DNA of 35,338 nucleotides. It comes from Patescibacteria group bacterium. GTDB taxonomy: Bacteria > Patescibacteriota > Minisyncoccia > UBA6257 > UBA11618. The stretch lies in contig JBDRBW010000022.1 of NCBI GenBank assembly GCA_043822345.1, forward strand, positions 1-35,338. The letters run 5' to 3'. The notes beneath the pieces were generated by a model. It had not been told where the DNA came from, did no database searches, and saw only the letters and a program-made list of their open reading frames with translations. The translations under genes and the position numbers were made by a program. Positions 751 through 35,308 of this stretch are shown here, in pieces; the stretch's first letter is position 1, and every line of letters starts with the position of its first letter.

Positions 751-862
751 GTCATCTCGACCGAAACGAAGTGAAGTGGAGAGATCTCATTGCTTTCAAT
801 AATACCTAATCCATGAGATTTCTCCATTACGGCCGCTTCTAGCGGCCTCCAGTCGAAATGAC
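751..862. repeat. GTCAT/ATGAC REP-like inverted doublet
   Basis: GTCATCTCGACCGAA...GGAGAGATCTCAT (751-790) faces ATGAGATTTCTCC...GTCGAAATGAC (813-862). A degenerate third unit lies at 879-908. Confidence 0.85.
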
Positions 863-7593: not shown

Positions 7594-7685
7594 GTCATCT
7601 CGACCGTGGTGGAGAGATCTCATAAACTTTGCAACGCACAAAGCACTGAGATTTCTCGACTTCGTTTCACTTCGCTCGAAATGAC
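7594..7685. repeat. REP-like inverted doublet in a predicted 5' UTR
   Basis: GTCATCTCGACCGTGGTGGAGAGATCTCAT ... TGAGATTTCTCGACTTCG...CTCGAAATGAC. Confidence 0.85.
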
Positions 7686-7785: not shown

Positions 7786-8295
7786 ATGGATAATCTACTA
7801 TTCAAAACACCCGCTGGTATTCAGTTATCGCCTGAACAGGTGGTTACCGAAATCATCCAGTTTATGCAGGCCGATACCAAACGACCCTACAAAATCATCA
7901 TCGGCACCGATTCTGAAGAAATAGGCAACCTCAGCGCCGACTTTGTAACCGCCATCGTTGTCCACCGCATCGGCAATGGCGGCCGTTATTTTTGGCGCCG
8001 CGCCATCATCGGCAAAATGCATACCTTAAGAAACCGCATCTGGCAGGAAGTGCTTACCTCTCTTGATGTCGCCAAGGACTTTCTGGGCGTTGCTAAGCAA
8101 TTTAACCTACCTCACTTTGACTTTGAAATTCACATTGACGTCGGCGAAAACGGCAAAACTCGCGACATGATTCAGGAATTAGTCGGCGTCATCCGCGCCA
8201 ACAACTTTGAAGCCCGCACCAAGCCCTACAGCTACGCCGCTAGCTCTGTCGCCGATAGGCACAATAATAAACATTCGATACCGTCGTCATCCTGA
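7786..8295 (+). CDS. RNase H-like YkuK family protein
   Basis: IIIGTDS, TAIVVHRIGNGGRYF, EIHIDVGENGKT and KPYSYAASSVADRH. The TGA stop lies inside a REP unit. Confidence 0.85.
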   Translation: MDNLLFKTPAGIQLSPEQVVTEIIQFMQADTKRPYKIIIGTDSEEIGNLSADFVTAIVVHRIGNGGRYFWRRAIIGKMHTLRNRIWQEVLTSLDVAKDFLGVAKQFNLPHFDFEIHIDVGENGKTRDMIQELVGVIRANNFEARTKPYSYAASSVADRHNNKHSIPSSS

Positions 8296-8342
8296 GTGTT
8301 AACGAAGGATCTTTAAAGATTCTTCGCCTCGCTCAGAATGAC
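8285..8342. repeat. REP-like inverted doublet
   Basis: CGTCATCCTGAG...GAAGGATCT-TTAA-AGATTCTTCG...CTCAGAATGAC. Confidence 0.85.
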
Positions 8343-17126: not shown

Positions 17127-17259
17127 CTTTGAATTACGAAACGTCCCATTTGTCATTTCGAGCGTAACGCAGTGAAGTCGAGAAATCTCATAAACTATAC
17201 ATTATTTCAAATCACTGAGATTCTTCGACAAGCTCAGAATGACGTTTCGTAATTCAAAG
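17127..17259. mobile_element. MITE-like composite: REP doublet within 19 bp perfect outer inverted repeats
   Basis: CTTTGAATTACGAAACGTC / GACGTTTCGTAATTCAAAG. 17214-17259 is identical over 46 bp to 34755-34800. Confidence 0.75.
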
Positions 17260-17275
17260 ATATATTACACTTTTT

Positions 17276-17356
17276 GTCATCCCCGACTCGATCGGGGATC
17301 CATTACGTTATTGTATTAGATCCCGGACAGTCGCCTACGGCGACTTCCGGGATGAC
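17276..17356. repeat. REP-like inverted doublet (GTCATCCC subtype)
   Basis: GTCATCCCCGACTCGATCGGGGATCCA ... AGATCCCGGA...TCCGGGATGAC. Confidence 0.85.
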
Positions 17357-18429: not shown

Positions 18430-18520
18430 GTCATTTCGAGCTTGTCGAGAAATCTCATCGTTCATATTTAATCAATGATTACGAGATCCCTCGACTTCGC
18501 TCTGCTTCGCTCGGGATGAC
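18430..18520. repeat. REP-like inverted doublet overlapping the dedA 3' end
   Basis: GTCATTTCGAGCTTGTCGAGAAATCTCAT ... GAGATCCCTCGAC...CTCGGGATGAC, supplying the C-terminus VSSRAKQSEVEGSRNH. Confidence 0.85.
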
Positions 18521-25083: not shown

Positions 25084-26943
25084 CTACGAGGGTGTGTTTG
25101 GACAACCAACCATTCCCATAACATCGATAAAACTCTGACAATCAGACGGAGGACTGTTTGGTGGTGGATTATACGGATTCCTACAACTATTGTATGCAAG
25201 AAACATATCAGAGCAATAATAATAATCATTCGTAGAAGCAATGCAATTAGGTTCCCATGTACACACTAAAGAATCTGCCGACTGATAAGCACCACAACTT
25301 CTCTCGCCAAGCGATGCGCATATATTCCTAATAATTGAAGGTTGCCCAGGTTTTGCTTTGCAACAACCGGTTCTTTCTGGGGGTGTGTTTGAACAACCAA
25401 CCATATCTATAGCATCTTTATAAAGCTGACAATCACGTGGAAGACCCATTGGTGGTGGATCATCACCAATATACCTACAATCACTGTAGGCATTAAGCAT
25501 TCCTTGGCAATAGGGCGTAGGATCGCCGGTTTCATAAACAGGACAACTAGGCAACCAAGGAGTAATAATACCTCCTGCCTTCTTACAAGAGTTTTCTTTT
25601 ATATCGTGCATGTATATACCTTTATACAAACAGCATACTTCTTTAACTTCACCTCCATTTCCTGTCCCTGTTCCTGTGCCACTAGCAGGACTACAAATTC
25701 CTCGTAGTTCCCCATTTATGCCCAAATATGTATTAAAAATACATAAACCTGGAGGAGCTTGGTCGCATGAAGCTTTTTGCTCTTTAATTGTTGATCCAGA
25801 ATTATAACCCGTTTCAGGATCATTACAAGCATTCTTCTCCATTATTAATCCTCCACCTCCTCCGCCACCACCGCTACCCGTCCCTACCGGACTAGAACAA
25901 GAATACGCCGCCAGAGAACTATCTGTAACCCCCCATCCTACTATGCCAGGAAGAATGCTAGAACAAATACCGGTTACTACCTCACCCCCTACCGCAAACG
26001 GATCATCTAAAAAGAGATCGGAAAAAAGATCCGACCAATCTCCATCGTCACCAAAAATCTCCGCGCAGATATCACAAGTACCGGTGAGCGCGCAGTCACC
26101 AACCGGGCAAGTGCCAGTGAGCGCGCAGTCGTTAATAAACGGCACCCACTGGCAATGGTTGCCACAAACCGCCTCCGCTGTGCCATCGTCATTAAACAGA
26201 ATATCTCCGGGAGGGTCGCATTCTTCACCAGGACCAACACCGTAGTCACCACAACTACCACCGACATAAAAACACTCTCCACATCGATCGTCACCGGTTT
26301 CCGCACAATCAAAACCTATTCCACATCCATGAGGAACGGCGGAAGAATCACAATTCTCGCCCAAATCATTGACACCGTTGCCGCAAGTTGATGAAGGCGG
26401 AGTTACTGGCGGAATTACTGGCGGAGTCGTGCCGCCACAACCACAAGAGGGCGCACTGCCTCCTGGAAATTCTAGAGAACCAGGTGGATAACCCCAACTA
26501 ACAACACAGCCATAGATGGCATTTGCCGCCTCACAAGCCCCCACATCCGACCCAAAAGCCACGCAAAATGTCATATCACAACCACCGCCGCCACAATAAG
26601 TGCTTAGCAAAGGAACATAACCCCCGGTGGGATTAAAACTACAACAAAGCGGATATTCAGCCGCTTCACAGGCCGCTGAATCAGGATAGACCGGCGGCGG
26701 AATCCCACCTCGACACCCTTCATAATTATCCCAATAACAAACACCTGAAGGGTCGTTATGACAAGCTTCATCATTTGTATACTGCGCACAATTCGCCACT
26801 GGTACCTGCGCCCCCACCTGAACACCAACATCGGTACCGGCCACAAACCATATAATTAATCCGACCATAATAACGGCAAAGACGACCCAAAATAAAGTTT
26901 GGTTTGTCGACATGCCATTGCAACATGTTTTTTTCTTTTTCAT
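25084..26943 (-). CDS. Membrane-anchored Cys/Gly/Pro-rich surface protein
   Basis: 619 aa with an N-terminal TM helix, CGNGVNDLGENCD and CGDYGVGPGEECD repeats, and a duplicated C-terminal Cys module. Confidence 0.8.
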   Translation of the reverse strand: MKKKKTCCNGMSTNQTLFWVVFAVIMVGLIIWFVAGTDVGVQVGAQVPVANCAQYTNDEACHNDPSGVCYWDNYEGCRGGIPPPVYPDSAACEAAEYPLCCSFNPTGGYVPLLSTYCGGGGCDMTFCVAFGSDVGACEAANAIYGCVVSWGYPPGSLEFPGGSAPSCGCGGTTPPVIPPVTPPSSTCGNGVNDLGENCDSSAVPHGCGIGFDCAETGDDRCGECFYVGGSCGDYGVGPGEECDPPGDILFNDDGTAEAVCGNHCQWVPFINDCALTGTCPVGDCALTGTCDICAEIFGDDGDWSDLFSDLFLDDPFAVGGEVVTGICSSILPGIVGWGVTDSSLAAYSCSSPVGTGSGGGGGGGGLIMEKNACNDPETGYNSGSTIKEQKASCDQAPPGLCIFNTYLGINGELRGICSPASGTGTGTGNGGEVKEVCCLYKGIYMHDIKENSCKKAGGIITPWLPSCPVYETGDPTPYCQGMLNAYSDCRYIGDDPPPMGLPRDCQLYKDAIDMVGCSNTPPERTGCCKAKPGQPSIIRNICASLGERSCGAYQSADSLVCTWEPNCIASTNDYYYCSDMFLAYNSCRNPYNPPPNSPPSDCQSFIDVMGMVGCPNTPS

Positions 26944-27072
26944 AAGTTAATTTTAGCAGATATAAAATTAATGCAATAGTGCAAAACTGTGGATAAGTTT
27001 ACGTGAATTTCGAAAGCCAAATTTTGAATTTCGAATAAATTTTGAATTATCTTAATTTCGAAACATTTTTTT

Positions 27073-27550
27073 CGTCATCTCGACCGAAGTGGAGAGATCT
27101 CATTAATGTGGACGCATTGAGATCTTTCGACTCCGCTTCGCTTCGCTCAAGATGACAAGATGACAGAAGTAGTCATCTCGACCGAAGTGGAGAGATCTCA
27201 TTAATTCCAATCATCAGATAAATCCTTAAATTCGGGATTATTTTTCTTAATTAGCTCTATCTTTTTCTTTCTTGACCACCTTTTAAGTTGTTTTTCTCTA
27301 GAAATCGCATCATACGGATTATCAAAAACTTCATAGTGTATAACCTTATTTAAATTATATTTTTCAGTAAAACCTTTAACTTGCTTTTGTTTGTGCTGCC
27401 AAGCTCTGTTAGAAATATCGTTAGTAACTCCTATATAGGATGTCGTATTCCACTTGTTCATCATTATGTAAACATAAAGATTTTTGCTCATAGTGATGTT
27501 GATGAGATTTCTCGACTTCACTCACTTCGTTCGTTTCGCTCGAAATGACG
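27073..27550. mobile_element. Candidate REP-flanked GIY-YIG cassette
   Basis: REP units at 27073-27103, 27118-27156, 27172-27201 and 27502-27550. The last two face each other around the nuclease gene. Confidence 0.65.
27201..27491 (-). CDS. Small stand-alone GIY-YIG nuclease family protein
   Basis: LYVYIM...YIGVTND...R..QH...GFTEKY...YEVF...AISREKQLKRWSR..K..LI...NP. Start set at MSKNLY. Confidence 0.92.
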   Translation of the reverse strand: MSKNLYVYIMMNKWNTTSYIGVTNDISNRAWQHKQKQVKGFTEKYNLNKVIHYEVFDNPYDAISREKQLKRWSRKKKIELIKKNNPEFKDLSDDWN

Positions 27551-27608
27551 GGATTGAAAATTCAGTCATTAGAGTTTTATTCGAAATTCAAAATTAGAAA
27601 TTCGAAAT

Positions 27609-28208
27609 TCAGCGCGTAGCGCTGTCAAATTGCTCCATCGTTGCCGTAAATCGTTGATTGAGTTCGTTAATGTTGCGAATCTCCTGATTAATTGCGTCCA
27701 TATACTGCTTCACTAATTGATCGCTATTCGTCGCTTCTCCTCTAAACTTTTGTTGTAACAAATCATATAACTGGCGCAATAAGCTATGATAGTTAATCAA
27801 GCGATTAACCAAACTCACCTCATAACCCACCGCCTCGGTCGCCAGCGCCTGCGCCTGGCCAGGATTAATCTGCTCCAAATAGGCCGCCATAATACCTAGC
27901 TGGCTGGAAAGTAAAATCGCTTGTTGGCGCGCCTCGCTATTTCTTGCTAGCTCTTTATCGGCTAATTCCAGCGCTTGAGAATATTTTTTCTGCTCATCTA
28001 ATCCGGCGATTTGCTCCAGTCCAGCCAATGATTGGTGCGCCAAAAAAACAATCTGCTCCGCCACCAAAGCGCCGGACTCTCGCGCTTCACTGAATTCATA
28101 AGGAACATAAGGATTCCCCCACCACCAACTCTCCCCAAAAATATAAACGCCGCCGGCAACCAAAAACACCGCTATGGTGGCTATCAAAATAATTTTACGC
28201 GTATCCAT
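27609..28208 (-). CDS. Membrane-anchored helical hypothetical protein
   Basis: 199 aa with an N-terminal TM helix and amphipathic helices. Confidence 0.75.
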   Translation of the reverse strand: MDTRKIILIATIAVFLVAGGVYIFGESWWWGNPYVPYEFSEARESGALVAEQIVFLAHQSLAGLEQIAGLDEQKKYSQALELADKELARNSEARQQAILLSSQLGIMAAYLEQINPGQAQALATEAVGYEVSLVNRLINYHSLLRQLYDLLQQKFRGEATNSDQLVKQYMDAINQEIRNINELNQRFTATMEQFDSATR

Positions 28209-28209
28209 G

Positions 28210-28281
28210 AGCGGGTAAGGGGAATTGAACCCCTGTCAACAGGTTGGAAACCTGTGGTAATAGCCACTATACGATACCCGC
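28210..28281 (-). tRNA. tRNA-Gly(TCC)
   Basis: GCGGGTA acceptor stem, U73 and anticodon arm ACAGG-TTTCCAA-CCTGT. TGCTATAAT at 28292-28300. Confidence 0.92.
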
Positions 28282-28305
28282 TGATTCATGTATTATAGCA
28301 TAGAA

Positions 28306-28330
28306 GTAACTAAAACGCCATTTTTTCGTT
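28306..28330 (+). promoter_or_regulatory. Putative ECF autoregulatory promoter
   Basis: GTAAC-16 nt-CGTT directly before the ECF sigma ATG. Confidence 0.5.
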
Positions 28331-28334
28331 ATCT

Positions 28335-28889
28335 ATGTTAGAGGACGAGTATAAAATAATAAAACGCGCCCAACGAGGTGATCAGGAGTATTTCGGCCAA
28401 TTGTACGACCACTATACTCCCCAAATCTACCGCTTCGTCTTCTTTAAGGTCGGTCACCAACAGGAGGCCGAAGATCTGACGCACGAGATATTTCTCAACG
28501 CCTGGAAGAATATTGATAATTTCACCTATCGAGGACACCCCTTTTCCAGTTGGCTGTACCAAATAGCCCGCAATCGCATTATTGATTACTACCGCGCGAA
28601 AAAAGATACCATTTCCCTAGATGATGTAAAAGAGATAATTCCCGAAACCGGCAATAGTATAGAAGAACGGCTGGACATCGGCTATGATATGGAAAAAATC
28701 AAGATGGCGATGCGACAGCTAAACGGAGACCAGCAGAACGTTATCATTCTTCGTTTTATTGAAGAACTATCCCCCGCCGAAATCGCCAAGGCAATGGATA
28801 AAAGCGAGGGCGCCGTCCGCCTCATCCAACACCGAGCAATTAAAAATCTTCGCGTCATTCTGAACACAAGTGAAGAATCTTATGAATAA
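28335..28889 (+). CDS. ECF RNA polymerase sigma factor
   Basis: Region 2 AEDLTHEIF...FSSWLYQIARNRIIDYYR and region 4 LSPAEIAKAMDKSEGAVRLIQHRA. Confidence 0.93.
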   Translation: MLEDEYKIIKRAQRGDQEYFGQLYDHYTPQIYRFVFFKVGHQQEAEDLTHEIFLNAWKNIDNFTYRGHPFSSWLYQIARNRIIDYYRAKKDTISLDDVKEIIPETGNSIEERLDIGYDMEKIKMAMRQLNGDQQNVIILRFIEELSPAEIAKAMDKSEGAVRLIQHRAIKNLRVILNTSEESYE

Positions 28890-34656: not shown

Positions 34657-34800
34657 CTTTGAATTACGAAATGCCGGTTTCGTCATCTTGAGCGAACCCC
34701 GCACTTGATGCGGGGGAAGTCGAAAGATCTCATAATTATTGCATTACTGAAAGTACTGAGATTCTTCGACAAGCTCAGAATGACGTTTCGTAATTCAAAG
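34657..34800. mobile_element. MITE-like composite, second copy of 17127-17259
   Basis: CTTTGAATTACGAAA / TTTCGTAATTCAAAG arms around a REP doublet, with nested CCCCGCACTTGATGCGGGG at 34697-34715. Confidence 0.75.
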
Positions 34801-35243: not shown

Positions 35244-35308
35244 GTCATTCTGAGCCACAGGCGAAGAATCTTTTTTAAGATCCTTCAGGCCTTGCCTTCA
35301 GGATGACG
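35244..35308. repeat. REP-like inverted doublet
   Basis: GTCATTCTGAGCCACAGGCGAAGAATCT ... AGATCCTTCAGG...TCAGGATGACG. Confidence 0.85.

What the first reader, a model, noticed from the sequence alone, without database searches (positions are those of the whole stretch)
27073..27550. GIY-YIG nuclease gene inside a REP doublet: candidate mobiliser of the GTCAT/ATGAC repeat family
Seen: empty doublets elsewhere (751-862, 7594-7685, 18430-18520, 27073-27156) consist of left unit, short AT-rich spacer and inverted right unit. At 27172-27550 the same two unit types enclose a 96 aa GIY-YIG gene in place of the spacer. Its TAA stop abuts the left unit, and the ATG is 10 nt from the right unit. The left unit is an exact 34 bp direct repeat (27074-27107 = 27172-27205). 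Known: GTAG-type REPs flank, and are processed by, HUH tyrosine RAYT transposases. No RAYT, TnpA or integrase is present in this window. Inference: this is a REPtron-like system in which a GIY-YIG nuclease, not an HUH enzyme, cuts and spreads the palindromes.
Basis: partly seen in the sequence, partly recalled or inferred. Interest (0 to 1): 0.92.

Follow-up and report, generated by a model that had tools for sequence, protein, structure and literature searches.

The report
Ssn hairpin nuclease with its repeats
A tiny GIY-YIG nuclease gene sits between two inverted copies of a hairpin repeat that litters this small genome, and this gene-plus-repeat pair matches the Ssn single-stranded-DNA nuclease system published in 2025, so it is a new example, with an unusual repeat shape, of something already known.

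Summary
ORF 27201-27491(-) encodes a 96 aa single-domain GIY-YIG protein. It lies between two inverted GTCAT...ATC hairpin units, beside an empty doublet that shares an exact 34 bp copy. About 288 such units occur in the 520 kb genome, against 7-16 in shuffles.

The gene-repeat link holds across phyla. Of 74 homologous loci with full flanks, 45 carry units on both sides, against 4 of 1016 control ORFs.

The system is already published. Chenal et al. 2025 (Nat Commun 16:2388) describe the Ssn family: ~94 aa GIY-YIG enzymes flanked by these hairpins, which bind them as single-stranded DNA and cut just upstream. The units are also the 'CGTC-tagged REPs' of Di Nocera 2013.

The window protein is 44% identical to the Neisseria gonorrhoeae homologue, which sits among NTS repeats, and it keeps the three residues needed for cleavage.

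What differs here:
- Most units, including those flanking the gene, have a 5 bp stem plus a G·A internal loop. The published search string misses them.
- The genome also holds a second Ssn paralogue, flanked by canonical units.
- Its unit density is the highest of 201 sampled phylum members.

The 'mobiliser' role remains unproven.

The parts
27201..27491 (-). ssn gene: 96 aa single-domain GIY-YIG nuclease of the Ssn family
   Evidence: PF01541 E 3.8e-15. 44% identical over 88 aa, E 1e-27, to the N. gonorrhoeae gene that sits among NTS repeats. 2672 homologues at E<=1e-3. Y8, Y19, R29 and E66 are conserved.
27506..27549 (-). Upstream hairpin unit (SRM) of the gene: 44 nt, stem triplet TTC/GAA, G·A internal-loop class, followed by tail TCATCAAC
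   Evidence: The same orientation (unit on the gene strand, upstream) is seen in 37 of 74 homologous loci together with an inverted downstream unit.
27172..27197 (+). Downstream hairpin unit (SRM), inverted relative to the gene: 26 nt, triplet CTC/GAG. Its tail reaches 27205 and overlaps the stop codon.
27074..27099 (+). Left unit of the adjacent empty doublet. It is an exact copy of 27172-27197; the identity runs for 34 bp, 27074-27107.
   Evidence: (D1).
27121..27156 (-). Right unit of the empty doublet: 36 nt, triplet CTT/AAG. The spacer is 21 nt (27100-27120).
27157..27164 (-). 8 nt partial copy of the 5' end of the unit (GTCATCTT), directly upstream of unit 27121-27156 on its own strand
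   Evidence: Similar 5' half-copies occur at 7 of 288 units, against 0 of 288 3' half-copies.
27004..27074 (.). AT-rich arm with AATTTCGAAA-type motifs. It forms an imperfect inverted repeat with 27541-27611, and the pair brackets the doublet plus the gene.
   Evidence: I1: 71 nt, 70% complementary. Related motifs flank the doublets at 17152-17243 and 34682-34784.
27541..27611 (.). Second arm of the AT-rich inverted repeat
   Evidence: I1.
751..862 (.). Empty doublet (+,-), 30 nt spacer
7594..7685 (.). Empty doublet (+,-), 30 nt spacer
8286..8342 (.). Empty doublet (+,-), 6 nt spacer (CCT|TCT type). It folds as one long hairpin, z -4.2.
17152..17243 (.). Empty doublet (+,-), 31 nt spacer, bracketed by GAATTACGAAAC / GTTTCGTAATTC
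17276..17356 (.). Empty doublet of canonical perfect-stem units, 18 nt spacer
18430..18520 (.). Empty doublet (+,-), 30 nt spacer
34682..34784 (.). Empty doublet (+,-), 30 nt spacer, with the same AT-rich brackets as 17152-17243
35244..35307 (.). Empty doublet (+,-), 8 nt spacer

Best explanation
This is an Ssn/SRM module.

The 96 aa protein is a member of the Ssn family of single-domain GIY-YIG nucleases. The GTCAT...ATC units are its Ssn-related motifs, which are the same repeats earlier catalogued as CGTC-tagged REPs.

Mechanism. When DNA is single-stranded, one strand of a unit folds into a hairpin. The hairpin has a 5 bp stem that begins AT. In this genome the stem is usually followed by a tandem G·A internal loop and a variable inner stem. 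The enzyme recognises the hairpin together with the unpaired GTC tag at its 5' side and the C at its 3' side, then hydrolyses the strand a few nucleotides 5' of the tag. This activity is shown for the Neisseria and Wolbachia enzymes and inferred here.

The gene sits between two units with tags outward, the arrangement kept by its relatives in many phyla. This genome holds two such pairs:
- the window's Ssn, with internal-loop units;
- a 52%-identical paralogue on contig C8, with canonical perfect-stem units.

What the cutting is for in this organism is not shown. Most likely it cuts unit-bearing single-stranded DNA, either incoming or arising during replication and repair, and so shapes recombination. 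That the same cuts seed new copies of the units is plausible but is only an inference.
For: Identity of the protein
- Single GIY-YIG domain, 96 aa.
- 44% identical over 88 aa, E 1e-27, to the N. gonorrhoeae gene that lies among copies of the published NTS repeat.
- The published family is ~94 aa, single-domain, flanked by these hairpins, and cleaves ssDNA upstream of them; Y6A, Y17A and E64A abolish cleavage (PMC11893778, sections 7, 8, 10). Counting from the gonococcal frame, these residues align with Y8, Y19 and E66 of the window protein.

Identity of the repeats
- The tag, the AT-first stem and the C after the stem match the NTS string and the CGTC-REP description.
- Canonical units are also present in this genome. 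C7:621-644 and three further sites listed equal the 24 nt NTS core.
- A relative's Ssn is preceded by a unit matching 27 of 28 NTS positions.

Association of gene and repeats
- 62 of 74 homologous loci with full flanks have a unit within 150 nt, and 45 of 74 have one on both sides. For other ORFs of at least 80 aa in the same loci the figures are 87 of 1016 and 4 of 1016.
- 16 of 20 further copies from 10 phylum genomes are flanked tags-outward on both sides (read).

Pairing is selected
- 142 of 153 sites matching GTCAT-N3-GA...GA-N3-ATC have complementary triplets, and all eight pyrimidine triplets occur.

Cognate pairs
- Flank class (perfect stem versus internal loop) changes only twice on the tree of 82-83 Ssn proteins.
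- The gonococcal protein groups with this genome's second, canonically flanked copy.

Genome level
- 22 of 27 phylum genomes with at least 10 internal-loop units have Ssn, against 40 of 174 with fewer.
Against: - No biochemistry exists for this protein or for any enzyme paired with the internal-loop units.
- The units flanking the gene do not match the published SRM search string as I coded it, without mismatches. It hits 14 of my 288 units, and 1 of 54 loci flanked by loop-class units.
- With DNA nearest-neighbour parameters, the four units at this locus (the two flanking the gene and the two of the adjacent empty doublet) fold no better than shuffles (z +0.04, +1.6, -0.35, +0.37). Their hairpin form therefore rests on covariation, not predicted stability.
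- No promoter-like site was found upstream of the gene on its strand, and no RNA data were looked at.
- CDD cd10448, the family's formal definition, could not be run. The N. meningitidis SsnA sequence itself was not available.
- Some repeat-rich genomes lack a detectable Ssn.
- The Ssn tree is weakly resolved: 50 of 80 inner branches are under 80. After the gonococcal row was added, the perfect-stem rows were no longer a single clade.
Confidence: 0.85

Rival explanations
1. REPtron-like mobiliser. Ssn is the enzyme that creates and spreads the units and doublets, playing the part RAYT plays for REP/REPIN. The doublets are non-autonomous copies of the SRM-ssn-SRM element.
For: - Doublets have the gene's own arrangement: of 102 adjacent unit pairs in the genome, 78 are (+,-) with tags outward, against 7 (-,+), 12 (+,+) and 5 (-,-).
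- An exact 34 bp copy of the gene's downstream unit heads the neighbouring empty doublet.
- Unit class follows nuclease lineage.
- Unit-rich genomes mostly carry Ssn, 22 of 27 against 40 of 174.
- This genome has both the gene and the highest count of 201 sampled: 150, with the next at 63.
- Partial copies occur only on the 5' (tag) side, the side where the published enzymes cut: 7 of 288 against 0 of 288.
- The gene is patchy among relatives (3 of 40), and its tree mixes phyla.
- The authors of the Ssn paper raise the same idea.
Against: - GIY-YIG enzymes are hydrolytic nucleases with no known covalent intermediate or strand-transfer step (general knowledge, not tested here). Copying would therefore need host repair or replication.
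- Only binding and cleavage have been shown in vitro, and the shown biological effect is on transformation.
- Unit-rich genomes without a detectable Ssn exist. In the order sample: G008 (59 canonical units), G026 (19 canonical and 9 loop-class), G030 (24), G005 (8). In the phylum sample: G112 (59), G152 (21), G193 (19), G087 (14), G044 (13).
- Copies of the gene within one genome are old: 38-69% identical in 9 of 10 pairs, 93% in one.
Confidence: 0.3
2. Hairpin-targeting selfish gene. The units came first, as REP-like structural or regulatory elements. The small GIY-YIG gene is a homing-type parasite that inserts into the spacer of pre-existing doublets, so the repeats are its target rather than its product.
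For: - The gene occupies exactly the spacer position of a doublet.
- Other small GIY-YIG genes in the same order sit in their own private inverted repeats, or at tRNA 3' ends with a 62 nt target duplication. This shows that small GIY-YIG genes here do behave as insertions.
- Unit-rich genomes without Ssn exist.
Against: - The flank class tracks the nuclease lineage across phyla. This fits co-inheritance of gene and flanks better than insertion into whatever doublet is present.
- Many loci have the two flanking units as the only units in 10 kb (for example L005, L007, L022, L033, L058, L076, L082), so there was no resident repeat family to target.
- Published enzymes cut ssDNA only, not the double-stranded empty allele a homing enzyme needs.
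Confidence: 0.1
3. Coincidence. At about one unit per kb, a short gene may simply have landed between two units. On this reading the gene is an ordinary repair-type GIY-YIG nuclease unrelated to the repeats.
For: - Unit density in the window is about 1 per kb.
- 87 of 1016 control ORFs have a unit within 150 nt.
Against: - Both-sided flanking is found in 45 of 74 homologous loci, against 4 of 1016 control ORFs.
- Both Ssn paralogues of this genome are flanked on both sides, though the downstream unit of the C8 copy is degenerate and was read by eye, as are relatives in the order.
- The published association is 71% of homologue regions with at least one SRM and 42% flanked on both sides.
Confidence: 0.02

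Closest known systems
Ssn nucleases with NTS/SRM repeats (Chenal et al., Nat Commun 2025;16:2388; PMC11893778; I read the abstract, sections 6, 7, 8, 10, 12 and searched passages)
   Same: - A single-domain GIY-YIG protein of about 94 aa.
- The gene is flanked on both sides by inverted hairpin repeats that begin (C/T)GTCAT and end ATC.
- Hundreds of copies of the repeat are scattered through the genome.
- The catalytic Tyr, Tyr and Glu are conserved.
- 44% identical to the gonococcal homologue.
- The family is spread across phyla.
   Different: - Most units here (211 of 288), including those flanking the window's gene, have a 5 bp stem followed by a tandem G·A internal loop and a variable inner stem of 24-60 nt, not an 8-9 bp perfect stem.
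- The published SRM string, as I coded it, misses them.
- The host is a 0.5 Mb groundwater bacterium of a phylum that the main text does not name.
- Two divergent Ssn/SRM pairs co-reside in this genome.
- No activity data exist for this lineage.
CGTC-tagged REPs (Di Nocera, De Gregorio, Rocco, BMC Genomics 2013;14:522; PMC3733652; I read the abstract, sections 6 and 8 and searched passages)
   Same: - A (C/T)GTC tag and stems that start with AT.
- Short unpaired tails. The perfect-stem units here end ATC-CA, as in the CCA tail.
- Units are mostly arranged as inverted dimers and are found in many phyla.
- That paper records that these repeats 'apparently lack a dedicated transposase'.
   Different: - That catalogue describes 8-9 bp stems with 4-5 nt loops in five phyla. 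The internal-loop class and this phylum are not in the text I read.
- It found no associated gene.
- The Ssn paper does not use the term CGTC REP. The two literatures are not joined in any paper found.
RAYT/REP/REPIN 'REPtrons' (Nunvar 2010; Bertels and Rainey 2011; seen only as listings and abstracts, and as described in PMC3733652)
   Same: - One small nuclease gene flanked by inverted copies of a genome-wide hairpin repeat.
- Repeats occur mostly as inverted doublets.
- The enzyme acts on folded single-stranded DNA.
- Gene copies within a genome are few and old.
   Different: - The enzyme here is a hydrolytic GIY-YIG nuclease, not an HUH Y1 transposase. No PF01797 match was found in the genome.
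- The tag is GTC, not GTAG.
- No transposition chemistry is known for GIY-YIG.
UPF0213 / YhbQ-like small GIY-YIG proteins (PDB 1zg2, 1ywl)
   Same: About 100 aa, a GIY-YIG domain only. These are the only solved structures found by sequence.
   Different: - The match is distant: profile E 4e-6 and 8e-5.
- The four GIY-YIG hits in this genome split two and two. The UPF0213-like pair (79-81 aa, 26% identical) has no GTCAT units nearby and sits next to tRNA genes.
GIY-YIG homing endonucleases (I-TevI type)
   Same: A GIY-YIG catalytic domain and a selfish-element flavour.
   Different: - No DNA-binding extension.
- The NCBIfam group I intron endonuclease model scores 18.4 bits against a cut-off of 56.
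- The published family cuts ssDNA, not double-stranded homing sites.

Membership tests
Ssn nuclease family (Chenal et al. 2025) | Single-domain GIY-YIG protein of about 94 aa with no extra DNA-binding domain | tested here: met
   96 aa. PF01541 covers residues 6-77 and no other Pfam family matches. No NCBIfam family is above its cut-off.
Ssn nuclease family (Chenal et al. 2025) | Homology to Neisseria SsnA | tested here: met
   tblastn hits one place in each of two N. gonorrhoeae chromosomes that PLSDB files as plasmids. Pairwise identity is 44% over 88 aa, E 1e-27. That gene lies among NTS copies. The N. meningitidis protein (CAX49033.1, named) was not available to compare.
Ssn nuclease family (Chenal et al. 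2025) | Assignment to CDD cd10448 (GIY-YIG_unchar_3) | not testable with these tools
   No CDD/rpsblast is on hand.
Ssn nuclease family (Chenal et al. 2025) | Residues whose mutation abolishes cleavage (Y6, Y17, E64 in N. meningitidis SsnA) are conserved | tested here: met
   They align with Y8, Y19 and E66 of the window protein via the gonococcal frame. Y19 and E66 are invariant in 24 homologues. The numbering transfer is my inference.
Ssn nuclease family (Chenal et al. 2025) | Gene flanked 5' and 3' by SRM hairpin repeats | tested here: met
   Units 27506-27549(-) and 27172-27197(+) flank the gene. The same holds in 45 of 74 homologous loci. However, these two units do not match the published SRM search string as I coded it.
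Ssn nuclease family (Chenal et al. 2025) | Binds the repeat as ssDNA only and cuts a few nt upstream | not testable with these tools
   This needs purified protein and oligonucleotides.
CGTC-tagged REPs (Di Nocera et al. 2013) | Unpaired (C/T)GTC tag at one end and a stem whose first two pairs are A-T and T-A | tested here: met
   My scan fixed GTCAT at the 5' end and ATC at the 3' end, so cannot test the tag or these two pairs. The base before the tag is C or T in the copies printed (D3, D5). The repeat finder (D1-D5) found unit families beginning GTCAT (and ending ATGAC on the opposite strand) with no motif imposed.
CGTC-tagged REPs (Di Nocera et al. 2013) | Perfect stem of 8-9 bp with a 4-5 nt loop and a CCA-like tail | tested here: not met
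   This is met by only 32 of 288 units (the perfect-stem class). 211 of 288, including the four units at this locus, have a 5 bp stem followed by G·A/A·G and a variable inner part.
REPtron (RAYT plus GTAG REPs) | HUH Y1 transposase gene flanked by the repeats | tested here: not met
   No PF01797 match in the genome, which is 77.5% complete. The flanked gene is GIY-YIG.
REPtron (RAYT plus GTAG REPs) | GTAG tag on the repeats | tested here: not met
   The tag is GTC.
GIY-YIG homing endonucleases | Catalytic domain joined to a DNA-binding domain; matches the group I intron endonuclease model | tested here: not met
   TIGR01453 scores 18.4 bits against a cut-off of 56.05, over residues 7-43 only.

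The most novel reading that the evidence does not exclude
The window's nuclease may represent a second, large Ssn lineage. Its cognate hairpin would be a different structural class from the characterised NTS: a 5 bp AT-YYY stem, a tandem G·A internal loop and a free-form inner stem. The published search string misses this class.

In this 0.5 Mb genome that lineage coexists with a canonical Ssn/SRM pair as two orthogonal enzyme-hairpin systems. The internal-loop lineage has driven, or tolerated, a burst of about 210 units, mostly as REPIN-like doublets. This is the densest load among 201 sampled members of the phylum.

If the enzyme is also what copies the units, Ssn would be the long-missing dedicated enzyme of the CGTC REP superfamily. 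It would also be the first hydrolytic nuclease known to drive a REP-type repeat family.
Probability: 0.3. Interest if true: 0.6.

Novelty: new member of a known kind. Interest (0 to 1): 0.35.

Why it matters
The remaining value is narrower, in three points.

1. Reach and shape of the family. The case shows that the Ssn/SRM pairing extends into very small groundwater genomes: Ssn was found in 62 of 201 sampled genomes of the phylum. It also points to a hairpin class with a G·A internal loop that the published search string does not find. This class appears to go with its own branch of the nuclease tree. Surveys based on the published string would therefore undercount both repeats and cognate pairs, and more enzyme-hairpin specificities would be available as ssDNA tools.

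2. Two literatures joined. The evidence links the catalogue of 'CGTC-tagged REPs without a transposase' with the Ssn family. I did not find these connected in print.

3. A test bed. With two co-resident pairs and one repeat per 1.8 kb, this genome is a good place to ask the open question of whether Ssn only cuts these hairpins or also multiplies them.

Tried and rejected
Excision or empty-site evidence. I laid the contigs of four groundwater-metagenome runs (X1-X4, two studies) on 26400-28400.
- The gene is contiguous with its flanking units in several contigs.
- The listed joints do not show excision. The 27046>27568 joint has only 27 nt on its shorter side and 13-40x depth against 3-6x locally, so it belongs to the AT-rich repeat elsewhere.
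- The 27102/27200>27498 joints carry 18 letters that match the spacer of another doublet (C8:26827-26906).
- Only contigs were available, so rare forms could not be seen.

Deletion model for the doublets. I considered that doublets with 21 nt spacers are internal-deletion derivatives of the gene-bearing element. I dropped this. The spacers are better described as two conserved tails, TCATCAAC-like and TCAGTGCGTCCA-like, placed end to end, whereas the gene has TCAT-type tails on both sides.

Searches that gave little.
- A second protein search, meant to reach a Neisseria-named homologue, listed none in its top 120. The link came instead from gonococcal chromosomes filed in the plasmid collection.
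- NCBIfam gave nothing above cut-off.
- The PDB by sequence gave only distant UPF0213 entries. No structure was predicted.
- Rfam found only five tRNAs in the window.
- The promoter/terminator scan found nothing on the gene's strand.

Order-level correlation. Among 41 genomes it was weak. Ssn is in G000, G012 and G039, while the genomes with at least 8 units are G000, G008, G012, G026, G030 and G005. The phylum sample was clearer. Related genomes are not independent, so the Fisher value overstates.

Limits of my unit scan. It demands GTCAT, five perfect pairs and ATC. It therefore misses degenerate copies, such as the ..GACGAC unit downstream of the C8 paralogue seen by eye, and it yields about 7-16 false hits per genome.

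Things I could not see.
Supplementary Data 3-5 of Chenal et al. may list internal-loop repeats or genomes of this phylum, which would lower the 'variant' claim further.

Not in print, as far as searched. No paper held both GIY-YIG and 'repetitive extragenic palindromic'. The GIY-YIG and REPIN hits were an author name. No paper held both GIY-YIG and RAYT/COG2827 in a bacterial-repeat context. Eight papers mention CGTC-tagged repeats and none is on Ssn. No later Ssn paper was found.
Full report
WHAT IS THERE

ORF 27201-27491 on the minus strand encodes a 96 aa protein whose only recognisable domain is GIY-YIG (PF01541, E 3.8e-15, residues 6-77).

On the gene's own strand the layout is:
- a 44 nt unit (27549-27506) lies upstream;
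- a 26 nt unit in inverted orientation (27172-27197 on the plus strand) lies downstream;
- both GTC tags therefore point outward.

The stop codon lies inside the tail of the downstream unit. The ATG is 10 nt from the TGAGAT tail of the upstream unit.

Immediately to the left is an empty doublet (27074-27099 plus, 27121-27156 minus, 21 nt spacer). Its left unit plus eight further bases is an exact 34 bp copy of the gene's downstream unit.

The window is contig C22 of a 520,449 bp, 27-contig genome that is 77.5% complete. It is held by groundwater metagenomes.

THE REPEAT FAMILY

A scan for GTCAT, at least five nested pairs starting at the AT, and a closing ATC within 20-60 nt finds 295 units in the genome (288 after removing nested calls). 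Five shuffles gave 7-16. The window holds 35, about one per kb.

The consensus is GTCAT-YYY-GA-GC...GA-RRR-ATC.

Pairing is selected, not assumed. With the triplets left free, 142 of 153 sites matching GTCAT-N3-GA...GA-N3-ATC have complementary triplets, and all eight pyrimidine triplets occur.

Three classes can be told apart:
- 211 units with a 5 bp stem followed by opposed GA/GA (a tandem G·A internal loop) and a variable inner stem;
- 32 units with a perfect stem of seven or more pairs;
- 45 others, of which 21 are a TGC/GCA type.

With DNA energy parameters the perfect-stem unit folds far better than shuffles (z -4.7). The four internal-loop units at this locus do not (z between -0.35 and +1.6).

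Units are mostly paired. Of 102 adjacent pairs, 78 are plus-minus with tags outward, the same arrangement as around the gene. Spacers cluster at 7, 21 and 29-30 nt.

IS THE GENE-REPEAT LINK MORE THAN CHANCE?

The protein has 2672 homologues at E<=1e-3 in the size range searched, many of them on contigs under 2 kb.

Scanning one genome per species gave 588 relatives. The 80 best loci come from many phyla at 46-60% identity.

| Set | Unit within 150 nt | Units on both sides |
|---|---|---|
| 74 homologous loci with full flanks | 62 | 45 |
| 1016 other ORFs of at least 80 aa in the same loci | 87 | 4 |

- 37 of the 74 loci have the exact plus-upstream, minus-downstream arrangement.
- Background density away from the gene is 0.29 units per kb. 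In several loci the two flanking units are the only ones in 10 kb.
- Upstream and downstream units share the same stem triplet in 28 of 37 loci, against 15.9 expected by re-pairing (maximum 22 in 1000).
- A further 20 copies from ten genomes of the phylum show both-sided, tags-outward flanks in 16 cases (read).

Coincidence is therefore excluded.

IT IS ALREADY DESCRIBED

Di Nocera et al. 2013 (PMC3733652; abstract, sections 6 and 8, passages) defined 'CGTC-tagged REPs':
- a (C/T)GTC tag, 8-9 bp stems that almost always begin AT, 4-5 nt loops and a CCA-like tail;
- found in five phyla, including Neisseria dRS3 and two Rickettsia palindromic element families;
- the authors concluded that these repeats 'apparently lack a dedicated transposase'.

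Chenal et al. 2025 (PMC11893778; abstract, sections 6, 7, 8, 10, 12, passages) report the following:
- They started from the meningococcal form of the same repeat (NTS, CGTCATTCCCGCGMAVGCGGGAATCYRG) and asked which gene is associated with it across bacteria. The answer was a 94 aa single-domain GIY-YIG gene, ssnA.
- 71% of homologue regions carry at least one repeat, and 42% are flanked on both sides.
- 137 of 169 genomes with more than 200 repeats have the gene.
- Purified SsnA binds the repeat only as single-stranded DNA, only on one strand, and cuts a few nucleotides upstream.
- Y6A, Y17A and E64A abolish cutting.
- Homologues from two other Neisseria species and from Wolbachia do the same on their own repeats.
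- In N. meningitidis the system lowers transformation by repeat-bearing DNA.
- The Discussion likens repeat-ssnA-repeat to an insertion sequence and to RAYT/REP, and proposes domestication.

MEMBERSHIP

CDD could not be run, and the meningococcal protein was not available. However, the plasmid collection holds two N. gonorrhoeae chromosomes filed as plasmids.
- The window protein hits one place in each.
- That gene lies among five NTS copies within 700 bp.
- It is 44% identical to the window protein (E 1e-27) and 57% identical to an Ssn from a relative of this genome.
- Counting in the gonococcal frame, the published Y6, Y17 and E64 fall on Y8, Y19 and E66 of the window protein. Y19 and E66 are invariant in 24 homologues.

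Canonical units also occur in this genome. C7:621-644 and three further sites listed equal the 24 nt NTS core. A relative's Ssn is preceded by a unit matching 27 of 28 NTS positions.

By sequence, the nearest solved structures are only distant UPF0213 proteins.

WHAT DIFFERS HERE

First, the hairpin class. The published SRM search string, coded without mismatches, hits 15 sites in this genome. These cover 14 of my 288 units, all of the perfect-stem class and none of the four at this locus. Within 200 nt of the gene it hits 1 of 54 loci whose flanks are of the internal-loop class and 4 of 11 with perfect-stem flanks. The main text of the Ssn paper contains neither 'bulge' nor 'internal loop'.

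Second, the class goes with the nuclease.
- On a tree of 82 Ssn proteins, all 11 perfect-stem-flanked rows fall in one group of 18 (SH-aLRT 95) and the 54 loop-flanked rows lie elsewhere. Only two changes of state are needed.
- With the gonococcal protein added, two changes still suffice. The gonococcal row joins a supported set of nine that includes this genome's second copy. The perfect-stem rows are no longer one clade, and 50 of 80 branches are under 80. This conclusion is moderate, not firm.

Third, this genome has two pairs. The window's Ssn has internal-loop flanks. A 52%-identical paralogue at C8:28810-29088 is preceded by two canonical units and followed by a degenerate inverted one.

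Fourth, load. A pattern for the internal-loop class gives 150 hits here, the most among 201 sampled genomes of the phylum (next 63, 62 and 59; reversed-pattern controls 0-2).

GENOME-LEVEL ASSOCIATION

In the phylum sample, Ssn (profile E<=1e-25) is found in 62 of 201 genomes, with up to four copies, some containing stops.
- 22 of 27 genomes with at least 10 internal-loop units have Ssn, against 40 of 174 with fewer (odds ratio 14.7; relatives are not independent).
- Five rich genomes have none: G112 (59), G152 (21), G193 (19), G087 (14), G044 (13).

Among 40 closer relatives:
- Ssn is found in G012 and G039, both with canonical flanks. The single-protein search also hit G032, but that hit (L088) is the tRNA-type GIY-YIG, not an Ssn.
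- G008, G026, G030 and G005 carry 8-59 units but only other classes of small GIY-YIG genes, or none.

DOES IT SPREAD THE REPEATS?

For:
- the doublets copy the gene's own arrangement;
- an exact 34 bp copy lies next door;
- class tracks lineage;
- the genome-level association holds;
- the gene is patchy among relatives and its tree mixes phyla;
- partial copies occur only on the tag side, 7 of 288 units against 0 of 288 for the other end. This is the side on which the published enzymes cut.

Against:
- GIY-YIG chemistry is hydrolytic, with no known strand transfer (general knowledge);
- only cutting has been shown;
- rich genomes without the gene exist;
- gene copies within a genome are old (38-69% identical in 9 of 10 pairs, 93% in one), which resembles domesticated RAYTs more than active insertion sequences.

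Laying metagenome contigs on the locus gave no credible excision joint (see Tried and rejected).

I put this reading at about 0.3. It does not exclude the main one.

VERDICT

That system is the published Ssn/SRM system, not a new class.

The instance is a new member in an unreported host group. It has a hairpin class and a nuclease branch that may not have been characterised.

Interest is modest (0.35). It would rise if the internal-loop pair proves to be an orthogonal specificity, or if copying by Ssn is shown.

Noticed in passing
G000:C8:21174-21374 (L002 ORF 1501-1746) and G000:C1:31605-31811 (L004 ORF 1501-1740); relatives L088 and L091: A second class of tiny GIY-YIG genes (79-81 aa, 26% identical to Ssn) sits directly beside tRNA genes (Ser, Ser, Gln, Ser). 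In L091 a 62 nt direct repeat (97% identical) begins inside the 3' end of tRNA-Ser and recurs right after the gene. The gene alone thus looks like a 376 bp insertion with a target duplication. In L002, tRNA fragments alternate with four copies of a 61 nt repeat.
   Followed up: partly
L106, L108, L111, L117 (relatives G030, G037, G012): Other small GIY-YIG genes of the MFYVY type are each bracketed by their own private inverted repeat of about 15-22 nt, placed just before the start and just after the stop. It looks as if each gene sits in the loop of a long hairpin. This was read by eye and not quantified.
   Followed up: no
window 26999-27070, 27575-27612, 17127-17148, 17244-17259, 34657-34680, 34785-34800: AT-rich motifs of the GAATT(T/A)CGAAA type bracket three of the doublets in inverted orientation. 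15 such sites occur in the genome, 6 of them in this window and 7 within 60 nt of a unit. Metagenome contig depth over them is 80-140x against 3-6x for the neighbouring genes, so the motif is shared with other organisms or loci.
   Followed up: partly
window 28854-28879 within ORF 28335-28889: The last dozen codons of the sigma-70 family gene (Pfam r2 and r4) are encoded by a hairpin unit, and the next ORF starts inside it. Genome-wide, 134 of 288 units lie wholly inside six-frame ORFs of at least 150 aa. This is an upper bound, because ORF starts are over-extended. The figure reported for N. meningitidis is 2% inside genes.
   Followed up: partly
G000:C8:28624-28728 (L003 about 1306-1410): Five tandem copies of an 18 nt piece (the first 13 nt of a unit plus 5 nt) precede a full canonical unit, just upstream of the second Ssn gene. 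Similar single 5' half-copies occur at six other units, and there is an 8 nt one at window 27157-27164.
   Followed up: partly
L121-L129 (G095, G148, G217, G126, G225, G096, G101, G234, G063): In nine sampled genomes of the phylum, two divergent Ssn genes (38-69% identical) lie 0.6-13.3 kb apart on one contig. Each has its own flanking units, sometimes of different classes, as in L129. It is unknown whether these mark a hotspot or bracket a cargo segment.
   Followed up: partly
window 25084-26943(-) and L003 1840-3198(+): Both Ssn copies of this genome adjoin genes for large cysteine-rich proteins. Pfam finds no family for the window's 619 aa protein; the C8 neighbour was not scanned. The two share a similar N-terminal membrane anchor (38% over 39 aa, E 3e-6). 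This recalls the clustering of NTS near surface-protein genes reported for Neisseria, but n = 2.
   Followed up: partly
L120 (NZ_CP119142.1:1881119-1882573): Two complete N. gonorrhoeae chromosomes (about 2.17 Mb) are filed as plasmids in the plasmid collection. In this record the reading frame of the ssnA-like match has no in-frame ATG in the stretch printed, and the nearby ATG is in another frame.
   Followed up: no
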